The position numbers were made by a program. 64,000 nucleotides of DNA from Escherichia coli (GTDB lineage: Bacteria; Pseudomonadota; Gammaproteobacteria; Enterobacterales; Enterobacteriaceae), in NCBI RefSeq assembly GCF_003991155.1, contig NZ_CP031293.1; one strand, 5' to 3'. How positions within the stretch are numbered: the stretch's first letter is position 1; each line of letters begins with the position of its first letter. This document shows positions 54,001 to 57,000 of this stretch, piece after piece.

Positions 54001-57000
54001 TTTGGCTCCCCTTGCGTGGATCATGGGCGTTGACTGGGCGGATGCTTCACTGGCAGGAAGTCTGATTGGTCAGAAGCTGGCAATTAACGAATTTGTTGCT
54101 TATCTCAATCTTTCACCCTATTTACAGCCAGGCAGTACGCTTGATGTGAAAACCACCGCAATTATTTCTTTTGCACTGTGTGGTTTTGCCAACTTTGGCT
54201 CCATTGGTGTGGTGGTGGGTGCCTTTTCAGCCATATCACCTCAGCGTGCACCTGAAATTGCACAACTGGGCATGCGTGCACTGGCGGCGGCCACCCTGTC
54301 AAACCTGATGAGTGCGACTATCGCTGGTTTTTTCATTGGGCTGGCATAAAAAATACAATCCCGGGTGTTACCCCCGGGATGTTTTTAACAGATATTGCGC
54401 GTTATTAACGGAAAGTGTTGGGTTATTGATGCTGGTGCTGGCACGTGACAGTGCTGCACATGCCATCGCAAAGTGAGCACTTTCCTGGAAACTACTTCCT
54501 TCCAGAAAACTGTAAAGCAGACCTGCCATAAAGCCATCATCTGCACCAAAGCTGTCCACAACGGCATGAACGGGCGGTGTGAGCAGAAATTGTTCTCCCT
54601 CTCTTTGGCTACAGAAAACGGATTCATCTCCCATCCAGACAAAAATCTGTTGCACACCCTGCTGATGTAGTGCGTTCACTGCGGTGAGTAGATCGGTCTC
54701 ATTGTTGACAGGGGAACCCCATAATATCTCCAGTTCTTTTTGTGTGGGTTTCAGGGTATGGATATGCGGAAGCCAGTTTTTTACATTAACAGCCTTAAAT
54801 TTCGACACTGTATCAATAAAAACGGGAATGCCGTCAGCGACCGTAAAGATCCATTCAAGGGCGGCAGGTGTCAGATTACAGTCAGCCAGCACCACGCCAG
54901 CGTGACGGATTAACATACGTGAGGCGTCCAGCAACTGCGGCGTCAGTTGTTGCAGAATATGGGTATCATTAATCGCCATCACTGTTTCTGCCTGTAGGTC
55001 GGCGATGGAGACATAAGTTGAAGTATTTTGTCCGTTCAGTCGAATACAATTGGTGACATTAACGCCGGCCAGGCGGGTCTGCTCCAGTAATGTTTCGCCA
55101 TAAAAATCATTGCCTACAGCAGATATCAGATGCACATTGCGGCCCAGAAGGGCGAGATTATGGGCGATGTTGCGTCCGACACCTCCGGCAGAGCAGTAAA
55201 TACTGCCCGGACTGGAGGATTTCTGTGGATAATGGATATCCGCCACCCCACGGATATCCATGTTAATCGCCCCAAGAACAACACAGTATTCCTGTTCTGT
55301 CAGGATGTAGCCTTTCCCTTTAATCGCACCTTTGCGCATCAGATCCATAATGTGTGCAGCAACACGCGACCGACTGATTTGTAAAATCTCAGCAATTTCA
55401 TTCTGCTGGATCAGTGGGTTGTGACGCAGGATCCTGAGTATCTCTTTTTCTCTGTTGTCCATGATTATGCAACTGCCTGTTCGGTTTTTCGTCAGCGATC
55501 ATCAAAGTAAATAGCTTCGTTTTTCCCGGTGAACGTGAAGCTAGGGGAGATTATACTTCCGGATGTTCATTCAGGGCAGAAGAATAATACATCAGTTAAT
55601 TTTCTGTTAGTACTTTGTAGTCGAATGTTTGGGGAGTGTGTCTGAATGACAGCCAGATGGAATGACTTTTTGTAGCCAGGTCATGACTACGACTCATACG
55701 CTATTCTTAATTCTTATTTCTTTCCATTATACGCAAGTATTTTTAATTTAGGTTTATTACTATAATTATATTCACTTTGTCTTTATTCACTCTGTTTTTA
55801 CTTACTCTCTATCTTTACTCATTCCATTACTCTGACCCTCACCCGATTATACTTACTCCCTTCCTTGTCTAATCTTCATTGCCACCATTATCATGGTATC
55901 CACCTTCTCCACCTTCTCCACCTTCTCCTTCATTCAATCATAACTACTGTAATTCATACGATACTCAGATAAGTTATTTTACTACGTTGTTGCTAATATC
56001 TACCTGTTATCAGTCTTCACTGAAACAGCAATTGATTTTAGTCATTATCCATAATGAACTGTATTGACTTAACGATGATTGTTGTTGACCTGAAGTGTTT
56101 TAACTATTCTGGTAAATATCAATACTTCTGTCATCACTGATTAACTGGATGTTTACTCTTTGATAAGGTATCCATGATTTCGTCATGTTTAACAGCGCAG
56201 GATAAACAATGAAATTAACAGAGTGAATTCCTGATTATATTTGTTCGTTTCTGATTATCTTGTATGTTAAACAAAATGAAAATTATCCATCCATGGTATA
56301 TTTTATTCTGGTACCGTGTACCCGTTAACGCTCATGTTTTGAAGTGAGTTGTTTTTAACAGATTAAATGAGAGTGTATGATTTTATCAGGTTACAGATAT
56401 GTGTTGGCCTTGTACACGTTTTTGCAGACTCACTGAGAGCAAGTTTGTAGTTTATGATGTGATTGGTCGCAATATGTTTCTTAATCTCCAGGTAGTGGGG
56501 TTTTAGCTCGTATTTTACAGTATTTCGTGATGTTTTATTGAGTCTGTATTTTCTTTACTCCTCGTTTATCTCATCTCTTTAGCTAATACCATCAGATAAT
56601 CCATTTCTTTCTGCATAATGCTGCGTATCGTTAATAACCCGTCGTATCCATTCTGCTACAGCATGCCTGATAAATACCATCTGTAAGTTATTACCGTTAT
56701 GAGCGAAAGCATTAATTCGTTCACAGAGCTTAAAACATCATTAACTTTCAGGAGTCATCAACATGCCTAAATCTTACACACCAAACTGGTTTTTTACCGC
56801 TTTACTTGACAATCACATCAATCAAATGCTGGCACGTTATTCCTGCCTGCGAGCTTTACGGATGGATTTCTTCTACAGGAAAGATACGCCTGATTTCTTA
56901 CAACCTGATCATCGCTGGCTTGAATTGCAGTTGCGTATGATGCTGGAACAGGTTGAACAATTTGAAAATATCGTTGGCTTCTTCTGGGTGATTGAATGGA

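What the first reader, a model, noticed from the sequence alone, without database searches (positions are those of the whole stretch)
55690..56100. Strand-asymmetric polypyrimidine non-coding block with a tandem 9-mer repeat
About 400 nt of the plus strand are almost exclusively T and C (for example ...TTACTCTCTATCTTTACTCATTCCATTACTCTGACCCTCACCC...) and include CACCTTCTC repeated three times (about 55901..55930). No ORF is present and it lies in a 1.3-kb gap upstream of a YagK/YfjJ-like gene. Such composition is unusual for enterobacterial intergenic DNA and could mark a non-coding RNA, a triplex-prone or slippage-prone regulatory tract, or a relic of a degraded gene.
Basis: seen in the sequence. 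Interest (0 to 1): 0.4.

Follow-up and report, generated by a model that had tools for sequence, protein, structure and literature searches.

The report
G-poor leader tract with variable 9-mer
The tract is a real, guanine-starved, repeat-rich non-coding stretch just downstream of a conserved promoter-like block, ahead of a replication-protein-like gene found in P4-type genomic islands. It most likely acts as an unstructured RNA leader on which the termination factor Rho can load, and its 9-base repeat varies from 2 to 10 copies among E. coli strains.

Summary
The stretch is not almost pure T/C: the 411 nt are 66% pyrimidine and the core 55773-55965 is 74%. Its real hallmark is G depletion. It has 4-5% G, the lowest in the 64-kb window, and the highest C/G ratio on either strand.

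TCCACCTTC x3.3 sits at 55899-55928 and is a true variable-number repeat, with 2-10 copies in 9-nt steps among 370 E. coli genomes.

The tract is the start of a conserved ~1-kb non-coding unit (about 55711-56762). In all 10 E. coli contexts examined this unit precedes a 188-aa YagK/YfjJ (HUH Rep-like) gene followed by an alpA-like gene.

The tract begins right after a 30-nt AT-rich block (GGTTTATTAC-TATAAT). A related block, GGTT(A/T)(A/T)TTA-N-TATAAT-...CACTCCCTTTTT, occurs upstream of orthologues in 13 other genera. In 16 of 19 representatives it is followed by C>G-skewed sequence.

Tract sequence and length are hypervariable; only composition and degenerate direct repeats persist.

Best reading (about 0.4): promoter plus an unstructured C-rich, G-poor 5' leader that serves as a Rho-loading (rut-like) silencer.

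Rivals: a neutral slippage-prone spacer, or a protein-binding or origin-like repeat array.

Rfam match, triplex DNA, gene relic, and homology to P4 ori or the Ff origin all tested negative. Transcription is untested.

The parts
55711..55742 (+). Left edge of the conserved non-coding unit. Homology to the canonical yfjI-yagK-like intergenic region begins here. DNA to the left belongs to the psu/sugar-kinase cargo.
   Evidence: Distant BLAST hits start at query position 22, which is 55711. Local blastn aligns L003 543-587 to window 55711-55755 and finds nothing further left.
55743..55772 (+). Conserved AT-rich block TTTTAATTTAGGTTTATTACTATAATTATA. The core is GGTTTATTAC (55751-55760) followed by TATAAT (55761-55766). 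It is a promoter-like or operator-like element.
   Evidence: 94% mean identity among E. coli copies, against 67% for the tract. A related block, GGTT(A/T)(A/T)TTA-N-TATAAT, occurs upstream of orthologues in 13 other genera. The paralogous block upstream of K-12 yagK lies in a sigma70-holoenzyme SELEX site, where the authors read the promoter as TTTAGA-16-TATAAT and mark H-NS binding (PMC3946193; sequence). No acceptable -35 is present here.
55767..55965 (+). G-depleted, C/T-rich, A-interspersed tract, which is the finding itself. It is inferred to be the first ~200 nt of a 5' leader.
   Evidence: Lowest G and highest C/G in the window. Length runs from 94 to 224 nt with 2-5% G in all 10 E. coli copies. 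It is the fastest-evolving segment. It is unstructured as RNA.
55769..55821 (+). Degenerate direct repeats of about 15 nt (TATTCACTCTGTCTT x3.4). The core TAYTYAC recurs through the tract.
   Evidence: TRF, the repeat finder families D1 and D2, and motif counts above dinucleotide shuffles. The motif was chosen post hoc.
55899..55928 (+). Perfect tandem 9-mer TCCACCTTC x3.3. This is a variable-number tandem repeat.
   Evidence: TRF. Copy number is 2-10 among strains in exact 9-nt steps.
55966..56540 (+). AT-rich middle part of the long non-coding unit. It has no ORF, is mosaic, and evolves fast. It is specific to the E. coli subfamily.
   Evidence: 84% identity, against 93% at third codon positions of the adjacent gene. 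Two haplotypes occur around 56245-56400. Orthologues in other genera have leaders of only about 90-290 nt.
56541..56762 (+). Highly conserved gene-proximal 220 nt. It may hold a second promoter, an operator or the 5' UTR.
   Evidence: 95% identity among copies. C/G rises again to 3.2 at 56547-56624.
56763..57329 (+). 188-aa YagK/YfjJ (inovirus-Gp2-type) protein gene. It is a likely HUH Rep-like nuclease.
   Evidence: RefSeq names. Pfam REP_ORF2-G2P and YagK_YfjJ_C match below cut-off. H86-x-H88, Y156 and K159 are invariant in 18 homologues. The AF2 model has pLDDT 87.6. Parvoviral and AAV Rep nuclease domains appear among weak fold matches.
57576..58151 (+). Second gene of the module, a hypothetical protein. 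It is a pseudogene with an internal stop in this allele.
   Evidence: Annotation of the identical locus L002, feature 8077-8652, offset 49499. The window ORF 57444-57959 ends at the internal stop.
58220..58453 (+). AlpA-like helix-turn-helix gene (77 aa).
   Evidence: Pfam Phage_AlpA, E = 2e-10. The gene follows the yagK-like gene in E. coli and K. pneumoniae loci.
58705..59253 (+). Fourth gene of the conserved module (182 aa, no family match).
   Evidence: ORF list. Annotated in related loci. No Pfam or PHROG match.

Best explanation
The tract is the promoter-proximal part of a long untranslated 5' leader belonging to the backbone operon of a P4/CP4-type genomic island. That operon runs yagK/yfjJ-like HUH gene, hypothetical gene, alpA-like gene, hypothetical gene.

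Proposed mechanism:
- A conserved AT-rich block (GGTTTATTAC-TATAAT, 55743-55772) acts as the promoter and operator.
- Transcription would start a few bases downstream. The RNA would therefore begin with about 200 nt that are C- and U-rich, almost free of G, and unable to fold.
- Such RNA is what the termination factor Rho loads on (a rut-like site).
- Because the leader is about 1 kb long and untranslated, Rho would stop most transcripts before they reach the genes.
- Together with H-NS on this AT-rich DNA, that would keep the island module silent unless a regulator or anti-termination condition intervenes.
- The tract is built of short degenerate direct repeats and a perfect 9-mer array that expand and contract by slippage. 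This changes leader length and C content without destroying the composition.

Shown here: the composition, its strand, its position after the conserved block, its conservation across copies and genera, the lack of RNA structure, and the copy-number polymorphism.

Inferred, not shown: that the block fires as a promoter here, that the + strand is transcribed, and that Rho acts on it.
For: (1) The tract has the lowest G and the highest C/G ratio of the whole 64-kb window on either strand. 78-nt windows reach C/G of 5.4-8.4.

(2) The bias lies on the sense strand of the downstream genes. It starts directly after a conserved block containing TATAAT.

(3) The block is conserved from E. coli to Yersinia and Erwinia, where the proteins are only 36-57% identical. 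In 16 of 19 representatives the first 100 nt after it rank in the top 0.1-1.6% of all windows (both strands) for C-minus-G. In about half of the loci the locus-wide G minimum lies immediately upstream of the gene.

(4) Composition is retained while sequence is not. Tract identity is 67% with many indels, yet G is 2-5% in every E. coli copy. Tract length varies from 94 to 224 nt.

(5) The + strand RNA is essentially unstructured, at -6.3 kcal/mol for 188 nt.

(6) The paralogous block upstream of K-12 yagK lies in a sigma70-holoenzyme SELEX site that the authors read as TTTAGA-16-TATAAT. The same spacer is marked as H-NS bound (PMC3946193; sequence).

(7) Published maps describe Rut sites as C>G-biased and U/C-rich, often promoter-associated and clustered in prophages (PMC9499579). 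Rho-dependent termination is frequent in 5' UTRs and in horizontally acquired DNA (PMC12360218).

(8) No ORF, Pfam domain or Rfam family explains the region.
Against: - There are no expression data of any kind. The promoter is inferred.
- The block lacks a recognisable -35, and the consensus scan did not call it.
- In the most distant members the hexamer is TTTAAT or TGTTAT, so the key A at position 2 of the -10 hexamer is lost, while GGTTAATTA stays invariant. That looks more like a protein-binding site than a bare promoter.
- The tract is the fastest-evolving segment, faster than synonymous sites. That is also what a functionless slippage-prone spacer would show.
- Its G-poverty could be inherited from repeated duplication of a G-poor seed.
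- The C>G skew in other genera is moderate (G 7-18% in the first 100 nt). Those loci fall into about six related subfamilies, so they are not 19 independent tests.
- The conserved gene-proximal 220 nt may carry the real promoter of the gene. The tract would then be promoter-distal.
- The module in this window is decaying: gene 2 has an internal stop and the helicase gene is absent.
Confidence: 0.4

Rival explanations
1. The tract is a functionless, slippage-prone spacer (minisatellite-like). It arose by repeated duplication of a short G-poor seed next to the conserved block. Its composition and repeats reflect its mode of origin, not selection. Only the block and the gene-proximal 220 nt are functional.
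For: The tract is the most diverged segment: 67% identity with many indels, against 84% for the mid-leader, 93% at third codon positions, and 94-95% for the block and proximal region. Its length varies 94-224 nt among copies whose proteins are at least 95% identical. It has internal degenerate direct repeats and a perfect 9-mer array with 2-10 copies. The module in this window is decaying.
Against: G stays at 2-5% in every E. coli allele despite about 33% sequence divergence. Non-repetitive leaders of orthologues in other genera, which cannot be aligned to the E. coli tract, are also C>G skewed on the same strand directly after the block.
Confidence: 0.25
2. The block and tract form a DNA-level protein-binding array. 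It could be an origin-like or nick site with iteron-type repeats for the adjacent HUH (Gp2/Rep-like) protein or the DUF3987 helicase YfjI. It could instead be a phased operator array for the AlpA/Vis-type DNA-binding protein of the same operon.
For: - The downstream gene keeps invariant HxH and Y..K motifs and matches REP_ORF2-G2P weakly.
- The canonical upstream neighbour is a DUF3987 helicase. PHROGs calls it a DNA helicase, with a weak DNA-primase match. In P4 the crr replication site lies directly downstream of the alpha gene.
- The tract consists of same-orientation degenerate repeats with core TAYTYAC.
- In the Kluyvera/Serratia-type loci a 17-nt imperfect inverted repeat flanks the block.
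- In the Enterobacter/Klebsiella/Citrobacter-type loci, 4-5 direct repeats with 11-nt periodicity lie about 120 nt upstream, and TGTTCA(C/T)(C/A) occurs three times around the block. TGTTCACC is the P4 type-1 iteron.
- GGTT(A/T)(A/T)TTA is more invariant than the -10-like hexamer.
Against: - Smith-Waterman comparison of the tract with the whole P4 genome scores below the shuffled mean (23 against 25.7).
- An nhmmer profile of the block finds nothing at the + origins of M13, IKe or I2-2, or at P4 ori/crr. The best E-values are 4-8, at unrelated places.
- The flanking inverted repeat is absent from the E. coli and Enterobacter-type loci.
- Repeat cores are not positionally conserved among E. coli alleles with near-identical proteins.
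- No bona fide inovirus in the phage collection encodes a close homologue.
- Fold searches are compatible with an HUH nuclease but do not discriminate.
- A DNA-binding array does not explain single-strand G depletion extending to the start codon in other genera.
- No helicase gene remains in this window.
Confidence: 0.2
3. The functional product is a purine-rich RNA from the - strand. It would be an antisense or small RNA, or a stable RNA-DNA hybrid (R-loop) primer.
For: The - strand of the tract is A/G-rich and C-poor, so it would escape Rho. TATAATTATA in the block is palindromic, so a TATAAT also reads on the - strand (sequence).
Against: No promoter-like site on the - strand lies to the right of the tract within 170 nt, and no - strand terminator was found. 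The - strand shows no fold signal (z = +0.34). There is no Rfam match. In other genera the perfect TATAAT is on the + strand only.
Confidence: 0.05
4. The tract is a relic of a degraded protein-coding gene.
For: The non-coding gap is unusually long (1300 nt). PGAP calls a 41-aa ORF on the - strand in alleles with an expanded repeat.
Against: Six-frame translations hit no Pfam family at E<=0.1. No YfjI or alpha remnant was found by tblastn. Stops occur in all frames, and indels among copies are not in multiples of three. The PGAP ORF is simply the translated repeat, MKEKVEKVEKV....
Confidence: 0.03
5. The tract forms triplex (H-DNA) or another non-B DNA structure that regulates transcription or recombination.
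For: Purine/pyrimidine strand asymmetry.
Against: H-DNA needs uninterrupted homopurine-homopyrimidine mirror repeats (established knowledge). Here pyrimidine runs are under 12 nt and A is interspersed at 21%.
Confidence: 0.02

Closest known systems
Rho utilisation (rut) sites in 5' leaders and promoter-associated Rut sites of prophage or horizontally acquired DNA in E. coli (H-SELEX map PMC9499579; review PMC12360218)
   Same: C>G-biased, U/C-rich, unstructured stretch longer than 80 nt on the sense strand. It lies directly downstream of a promoter-like element, in an untranslated region of AT-rich foreign DNA.
   Different: Rho dependence and transcription are untested here. The tract is internally repetitive and length-polymorphic, which is not a described property of rut sites. 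About 800 nt of further untranslated leader follow it.
Promoter of K-12 yagK (CP4-6), mapped by sigma70 genomic SELEX, with H-NS binding (PMC3946193)
   Same: The gene is a paralogue. A related motif, GATAGGTATTA-TATAAT, lies upstream, with the same TATAAT used as -10 in the authors' reading. The spacer is AT-rich and H-NS bound.
   Different: The K-12 leader is about 190 nt, not G-poor, and contains a strong hairpin. It has no repeat tract. The K-12 protein belongs to a more distant subfamily that matches PF11726 strongly.
Satellite phage P4 replication sites ori and crr (type-1 iterons TGTTCACC; crr directly downstream of the alpha primase-helicase gene)
   Same: The tract's position downstream of a DUF3987 helicase gene (YfjI) in the canonical island layout. 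The context is a P4-type island with an AlpA/Vis-like gene. Short motifs resemble the iteron: TATTCACT, TATCCACC, TCTCCACC.
   Different: No significant sequence similarity to any part of P4. All motifs point in one orientation. The helicase gene is absent from this window. The iteron-like cores are not conserved in position among alleles.
Ff (M13/f1) intergenic + strand origin upstream of gene II
   Same: A cis element lies directly upstream of, and co-oriented with, a Gp2-family gene. In some genera an inverted repeat containing GAGT/ACTC flanks an AT-rich segment.
   Different: The block profile does not match the M13, IKe or I2-2 origins. The inverted repeat is missing in E. coli. No evidence for rolling-circle replication exists.
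Simple-sequence-repeat contingency loci (phase-variable repeats in promoters or 5' regions, for example in Haemophilus and Neisseria; own knowledge)
   Same: A perfect tandem repeat in a regulatory region, with strain-to-strain copy-number change in whole units.
   Different: The 9-nt unit and 2-10 copies lie outside a -35/-10 spacer or a coding frame. No phenotype or switching rate is known. The array is confined to one allele lineage of the tract (370 genomes).

Membership tests
Rho utilisation (rut) site / Rho-dependent leader attenuator | At least 70-80 nt of RNA with C well above G (C>G bias, YC-rich) | tested here: met
   78-nt windows across 55767-55961 have C/G of 5.4-7.0 on the 39-nt grid, with a sliding-window peak of 8.4 at 55868. 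This is the maximum in the 64-kb window on both strands.
Rho utilisation (rut) site / Rho-dependent leader attenuator | Little or no secondary structure in the RNA | tested here: met
   MFE is -6.3 kcal/mol for 188 nt, and the centroid is almost unpaired.
Rho utilisation (rut) site / Rho-dependent leader attenuator | Lies on a transcribed and untranslated RNA | tested here: inconclusive
   A conserved TATAAT-containing block lies directly upstream, and there is a K-12 paralogue precedent. But there is no -35 and no transcript data. No conserved ORF is present.
Rho utilisation (rut) site / Rho-dependent leader attenuator | Termination depends on Rho (bicyclomycin or rho-mutant sensitive; in vitro termination) | not testable with these tools
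   Needs wet-lab work or RNA-seq data from a carrier strain.
Variable-number tandem repeat | Perfect head-to-tail copies whose number differs among strains in whole units | tested here: met
   TRF finds 3.3 copies at 100% match. Spans of 142, 151, 160, 169, 178, 187, 196, 205 and 214 nt correspond to 2-10 copies.
Sigma70 promoter | -10 hexamer close to TATAAT with a -35 close to TTGACA at 16-18 nt | tested here: inconclusive
   TATAAT at 55761-55766 is perfect. The best -35 candidates match 1-2 of 6 positions, and the site was not called by the scan. The hexamer is TATAAT or TATTAT in most genera but TTTAAT or TGTTAT in the most distant ones.
P4-type origin (ori/crr) | Clusters of type-1 iterons TGTTCACC in both orientations, and sequence relatedness to P4 ori/crr | tested here: not met
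   Only degenerate one-orientation matches such as TATTCACT and TCTCCACC. The local alignment score against P4 is below the shuffled mean.
P4-type origin (ori/crr) | Cognate initiator (alpha or DUF3987 helicase) encoded next to it | tested here: not met
   YfjI is adjacent in canonical loci. No YfjI or alpha remnant exists anywhere in this window.
Rolling-circle double-strand origin / Ff + origin | Hairpin-forming inverted repeat with the nick site, conserved with the Rep family | tested here: not met
   An inverted repeat flanks the block only in the Kluyvera/Serratia-type loci, not in E. coli or the Enterobacter type. The block profile finds no match at the M13, IKe or I2-2 origins.
Rolling-circle double-strand origin / Ff + origin | Adjacent HUH initiator with catalytic HUH and Tyr motifs | tested here: met
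   H86-x-H88, Y156 and K159 are invariant. Pfam REP_ORF2-G2P matches at E = 5e-5, below cut-off. Rep nuclease domains appear among weak fold hits.
Described structured RNA family (Rfam 15) | Covariance-model match at or near the gathering score | tested here: not met
   The only hit is snR41 at 30.1 bits against a gathering score of 50, outside the tract.
H-DNA / intramolecular triplex | Long uninterrupted homopurine-homopyrimidine mirror repeat | tested here: not met
   Pyrimidine runs in the tract are under 12 nt, and A is 21%.

The most novel reading that the evidence does not exclude
The conserved block plus the repeat tract is the cis-acting site (nick, origin or binding array) of a so far unrecognised rolling-circle-type replication or mobilisation module of P4/CP4-type enterobacterial islands. 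The module would be run by the HUH YagK/YfjJ-like protein together with the DUF3987 helicase and the AlpA-like protein. The copy number of the repeats would tune its activity. Alternatively, the 2-10-copy 9-mer array acts as a heritable rheostat of Rho loading, setting how tightly each strain silences the island.
Probability: 0.12. Interest if true: 0.65.

Novelty: new member of a known kind. Interest (0 to 1): 0.3.

Why it matters
YagK/YfjJ-type genes and their AlpA partners sit in the backbone of P4-like cryptic prophages and pathogenicity islands in more than a quarter of complete E. coli genomes, yet their control is undescribed. A conserved promoter/operator block followed by a G-starved leader gives a concrete, testable handle on how these island backbones are kept silent. 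The candidates are Rho, H-NS, or a dedicated DNA-binding protein. It also raises the question of whether the HUH protein still has a cognate DNA site. The 9-mer array is additionally a ready-made polymorphic marker (2-10 copies) within one island lineage. If the tract is only a slippage-prone spacer, the finding is ordinary.

Tried and rejected
- Rfam search of 54500-58500 at E<=1 found nothing relevant.
- Structured-RNA reading: neither strand folds better than shuffles.
- Homology of the tract to P4 ori/crr looked convincing by eye (TGTTCACCTTTCT... against TATCCACCTTCT...). Smith-Waterman against the whole P4 genome scores below dinucleotide shuffles, so it is rejected.
- Homology of the block to the Ff nick region (TTTAATAGTGGACTC against TTAATAGGCACTCC) was also an eyeballed lead. 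An nhmmer profile of 19 blocks does not find the origins of M13, IKe or I2-2, nor P4 ori, so it is rejected.
- DnaA-box resemblance of GTATCCACC and TTCTCCACC (7 of 9 positions): by my own estimate, not a tool result, about 3-4 such matches are expected by chance in 1.3 kb on both strands. Not pursued.
- P. aeruginosa AlpA-type antitermination as a direct analogue: that AlpA is a much larger protein with a Q-like N-terminal ring. The 77-aa protein here has only the helix-turn-helix domain. The analogy is kept only as weak.
- Degraded gene: six-frame Pfam search and tblastn with YfjI and P4 alpha were negative.
- Triplex: excluded by run lengths.
- Phage and plasmid collections hold no replicating element with a close homologue that could have identified an origin.
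- Fold searches of the 188-aa protein gave a generic ferredoxin-like fold. Rep nucleases are present among the hits but not on top.
- Literature: no paper holds the block or repeat sequences. Papers mentioning yagK or yfjJ gave only the SELEX promoter entry. The supplement of the H-SELEX paper is not held.
- The P4 integrase arm-site resemblance (AAGGGGCAC in Klebsiella/Citrobacter-type loci against TTGGGGGCAC) was noted and not tested.
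Full report

The sequence is as quoted. GC skew on the + strand falls to between -0.6 and -0.76 from 55750 to 55999. Sliding windows show that this is the G-poorest 100-, 150- and 200-nt stretch of the whole 64-kb window, at 4-4.5% G against a mean of 25%. At most 0.03% of windows are as low. It also has the highest C/G ratio on either strand, 29 C to 3 G in 78 nt. TRF confirms TCCACCTTC x3.3 at 55899-55928, and also a degenerate 15-nt repeat at 55769-55821.

The wording 'almost exclusively T and C' is too strong:
- The core 55773-55965 is 74% pyrimidine, with 21% A and 5% G.
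- No pure pyrimidine run reaches 12 nt.
- The bias stops near 55965.

The tract is therefore G-depleted rather than polypyrimidine. The 1300-nt gap between a sugar-kinase gene (- strand, start at 55462) and a YagK/YfjJ-like gene (56763-57329) is real.

**2. Where it sits**

The window is E. coli chromosome, 100% identical to several complete genomes. The 411 nt have relatives at 70-100% identity in 1462 of 5426 complete E. coli genomes, with up to five places per genome.

In all ten contexts I opened, the tract lies in the same orientation about 650-1000 nt upstream of a 567-nt YagK/YfjJ ('inovirus Gp2-type') gene. That gene is followed by a hypothetical gene, an alpA-like helix-turn-helix gene and another hypothetical gene. 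ProQ/FinO-like and H-NS-like genes often follow further on.

The upstream neighbour varies:
- In the fullest layout it is a DUF3987 helicase gene, 'YfjI family'.
- Elsewhere it is an IS element, dsdA, or, as in this window, a pseudouridine-utilisation gene set.
- No trace of the helicase remains in this window.
- Homology to the canonical intergenic region begins at about 55711.

In this allele the second gene of the module carries an internal stop.

**3. Anatomy of the non-coding unit**

Aligning ten E. coli copies splits the ~1-kb unit into four parts.

| Part | Coordinates | Identity among copies | Notes |
|---|---|---|---|
| (a) AT-rich block TTTTAATTTAGGTTTATTACTAT(A/T)ATTATA | 55743-55772 | 94% | contains TATAAT |
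| (b) the tract | about 55767-55965 | 67%, many indels | 94-224 nt long; always 2-5% G, 25-37% C |
| (c) AT-rich middle part | 55966-56540 | 84%, mosaic | no ORF |
| (d) gene-proximal 220 nt | 56541-56762 | 95% | |

For comparison, third codon positions of the adjacent gene are 93% identical. So the block and the proximal part are constrained. The middle part behaves roughly neutrally. The tract turns over fastest yet keeps its composition and its degenerate same-orientation repeats with core TAYTYAC. That motif was chosen after looking at the sequence, so the enrichment only shows internal repetitiveness.

**4. The 9-mer array**

Among 370 genomes carrying this allele, the stretch matching the 151-nt query spans 142, 151, 160, 169, 178, 187, 196, 205 or 214 nt. 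That corresponds to 2-10 copies in exact 9-nt steps, and 249 genomes have three copies (first seen). This is a genuine variable-number repeat produced by slippage.

In expanded alleles PGAP annotates a 41-aa 'hypothetical protein' on the - strand. It is just the translated repeat, MKEKVEKVEKV.... Other alleles of the tract have a single copy of the unit.

**5. Evidence from other genera**

The 188-aa protein has full-length homologues at 36-60% identity in Klebsiella, Citrobacter, Enterobacter, Kluyvera, Serratia, Salmonella, Photorhabdus, Yersinia, Erwinia and others. All keep H86-x-H88, Y156 and K159, the signature of HUH nucleases. Pfam gives sub-threshold REP_ORF2-G2P and YagK_YfjJ_C matches. 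An AlphaFold model (pLDDT 87.6) has a ferredoxin-like fold. Parvoviral and AAV Rep nuclease domains are among the matches but not the best ones.

Upstream of these genes the block recurs:
- GGTTAATTAATATAAT is almost invariant in at least seven genera.
- GGTTTTTAGTATAAT occurs in the Enterobacter/Klebsiella/Citrobacter type.
- GGTTAATTAGT(A/G)TTAT occurs in Erwinia and Yersinia.
- The block is usually followed by ...CACTCCCTTTTT.

From there to the start codon (about 90-290 nt) the sense strand is C-rich and G-poor. The first 100 nt rank in the top 0.1-1.6% of all windows of the locus (both strands) for C minus G in 16 of 19 representatives. The locus-wide G minimum lies just upstream of the gene in about half of the loci. 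These loci form roughly six related subfamilies, so the number of independent observations is nearer six than nineteen. The E. coli subfamily differs by having a much more extreme tract and an extra ~800 nt between the tract and the gene.

**6. What the block is**

K-12 carries more distant paralogues (yagK, yfjJ) with a related motif, GATAGGTATTATATAAT. Genomic SELEX with sigma70 holoenzyme placed a constitutive promoter in the yagK-yagL spacer. The authors read it as TTTAGA-16-TATAAT, using the TATAAT of this motif, and marked the spacer as H-NS bound (PMC3946193). This supports reading the block as a promoter.

Cautions:
- The block in the window has no acceptable -35, and the consensus scan missed it.
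- In the most distant genera the hexamer loses the critical A while GGTTAATTA stays invariant. The block may therefore be primarily a protein-binding site overlapping a weak, AT-rich, probably H-NS-silenced promoter.

**7. Most likely mechanism**

A transcript starting just after the block would begin with about 200 nt of C/U-rich, G-poor RNA that cannot fold (-6.3 kcal/mol for 188 nt). It would continue through about 800 nt without any conserved ORF.

That is the accepted signature of a Rho loading site. Rut sites are C>G biased, U/C-rich, often promoter-associated and clustered in prophages (PMC9499579). Rho-dependent termination is common in 5' UTRs and foreign DNA (PMC12360218).

I therefore propose that the tract is a rut-like leader which, with H-NS, keeps the island backbone operon off. 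Repeat expansion or contraction would alter leader length and C content. Composition, strand, position and conservation are shown. Promoter activity, transcription and Rho dependence are inferred. Confidence is about 0.4.

**8. Rivals**

(i) Neutral slippage-prone spacer (0.25). The tract evolves faster than synonymous sites and is built of duplications. Against this, G stays at 2-5% in all alleles, and non-repetitive leaders in other genera share the skew.

(ii) DNA-level binding array or origin-like site for the HUH protein, the helicase or the AlpA/Vis-type protein (0.2).
- For: gene context; same-orientation repeats; a 17-nt inverted repeat around the block in Kluyvera/Serratia-type loci; 11-nt-periodic repeats plus TGTTCA(C/T)(C/A) motifs in the Enterobacter type, which recall the P4 type-1 iterons.
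- Against: no significant similarity of the tract to P4; the block profile finds neither P4 ori/crr nor the + origins of M13, IKe or I2-2; the inverted repeat is not general; no replicating relative exists in the phage or plasmid collections.

(iii) A - strand purine-rich RNA (0.05). No promoter, terminator or fold signal was found.

(iv) Degraded gene (0.03) and (v) triplex DNA (0.02). Both tested negative.

**9. Comparison with known systems and novelty**

The element works most like a promoter-associated Rut site or Rho-dependent leader attenuator in horizontally acquired DNA. Two defining features (C>G bias and lack of structure) are met. The other two (transcription and Rho dependence) could not be tested. 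It is not a member of any Rfam family, not a P4-type ori/crr, not an Ff-type origin and not an H-DNA tract.

Neither the block nor the repeat sequence occurs in the searchable literature. I rate it a new member of a known kind, with modest interest (0.3). It is real, conserved and unannotated, and it gives a testable handle on the silencing of a very common island backbone. It is not surprising in kind, and part of it may be functionless.

The most novel reading still open is a cognate origin or nick site of an unrecognised HUH-based module, or a repeat-number rheostat of Rho loading. I put that at about 0.12.

Noticed in passing
L036:4625-4714 and L029:4621-4700 (Citrobacter amalonaticus, Enterobacter sp.): Four to five direct repeats (TGATTTCTTAC-like) with strict 11- or 22-nt spacing lie about 120 nt upstream of the conserved block. 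Three TGTTCA(C/T)(C/A) motifs sit around the block. TGTTCACC is the P4 type-1 iteron. The arrangement looks like a helically phased protein-binding array.
   Followed up: partly
L019:4817-4867 (Kluyvera); the same in L021, L023, L027, L035: An imperfect 17-nt inverted repeat, AGGGAGTTAAAATTAAT / ATTAATAGGCACTCCCT, brackets the core of the block. It is absent from the E. coli and Enterobacter-type loci.
   Followed up: partly
window 57576-58151: The second gene of the module has an internal stop in this allele. It is annotated as a pseudogene in the identical locus L002. The window ORF 57444-57959 ends at that stop. The module here is decaying.
   Followed up: partly
L001:6354-6479 (E. coli CE10) and equivalent 'hypothetical protein' calls in other strains with 8-10 repeat copies: RefSeq annotates a 41-aa protein, MKEKVEKVEKV..., on the - strand. 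It exists only because the expanded 9-mer array opens a frame, so it is very likely an annotation artefact.
   Followed up: yes
window 55893-55943: A mini-ORF, MVSTFSTFSTFSFIQS*, starts at the only ATG of the tract and runs through the 9-mer array. Each added repeat would add three residues in frame. It has no Shine-Dalgarno sequence, and the ATG is lost in most other alleles (ATA, or absent), so it is probably meaningless.
   Followed up: partly
window 48912-49643: A second, larger Gp2-family gene (243 aa; strong YagK_YfjJ_C match, E = 6e-36) lies 7 kb upstream in the same island. Its upstream region has GTAGGTTTATTTTTT, resembling the left half of the block, but no TATAAT and no G-poor leader.
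   Followed up: partly
window 51125-55462: An accessory copy of a pseudouridine-utilisation gene set sits as cargo between the two Gp2-family genes. It comprises a pseudouridine kinase, a pseudouridine-5'-phosphate glycosidase, a NupC-type transporter and a divergently oriented HTH-sugar kinase. It replaces the YfjI helicase gene of the canonical layout.
   Followed up: no
L033:4782-5549 (K. pneumoniae ATCC 13883): The C-rich leader is free of stop codons in the gene's frame. A mechanical ORF of 255 aa therefore runs from upstream of the block into the 191-aa gene, which could mislead gene callers.
   Followed up: no
L033, L036 just after the -10-like hexamer (TAAGGGGCACTCCC): AAGGGGCAC resembles the arm-type binding sites of P4 integrase (TTGGGGGCAC, AAGGGGGCAT). 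The E. coli version has no G run there.
   Followed up: no
window 56045-56143 (- strand): The Rfam match to yeast snoRNA snR41 (30 bits, gathering score 50, E = 0.025) is the only hit in 4 kb. It is a chance match in AT-rich DNA.
   Followed up: yes
window 46201-46262: This is the longest G-free run of the window (62 nt). It is plain A/T-rich intergenic DNA, not C-rich, and differs in kind from the tract studied.
   Followed up: yes
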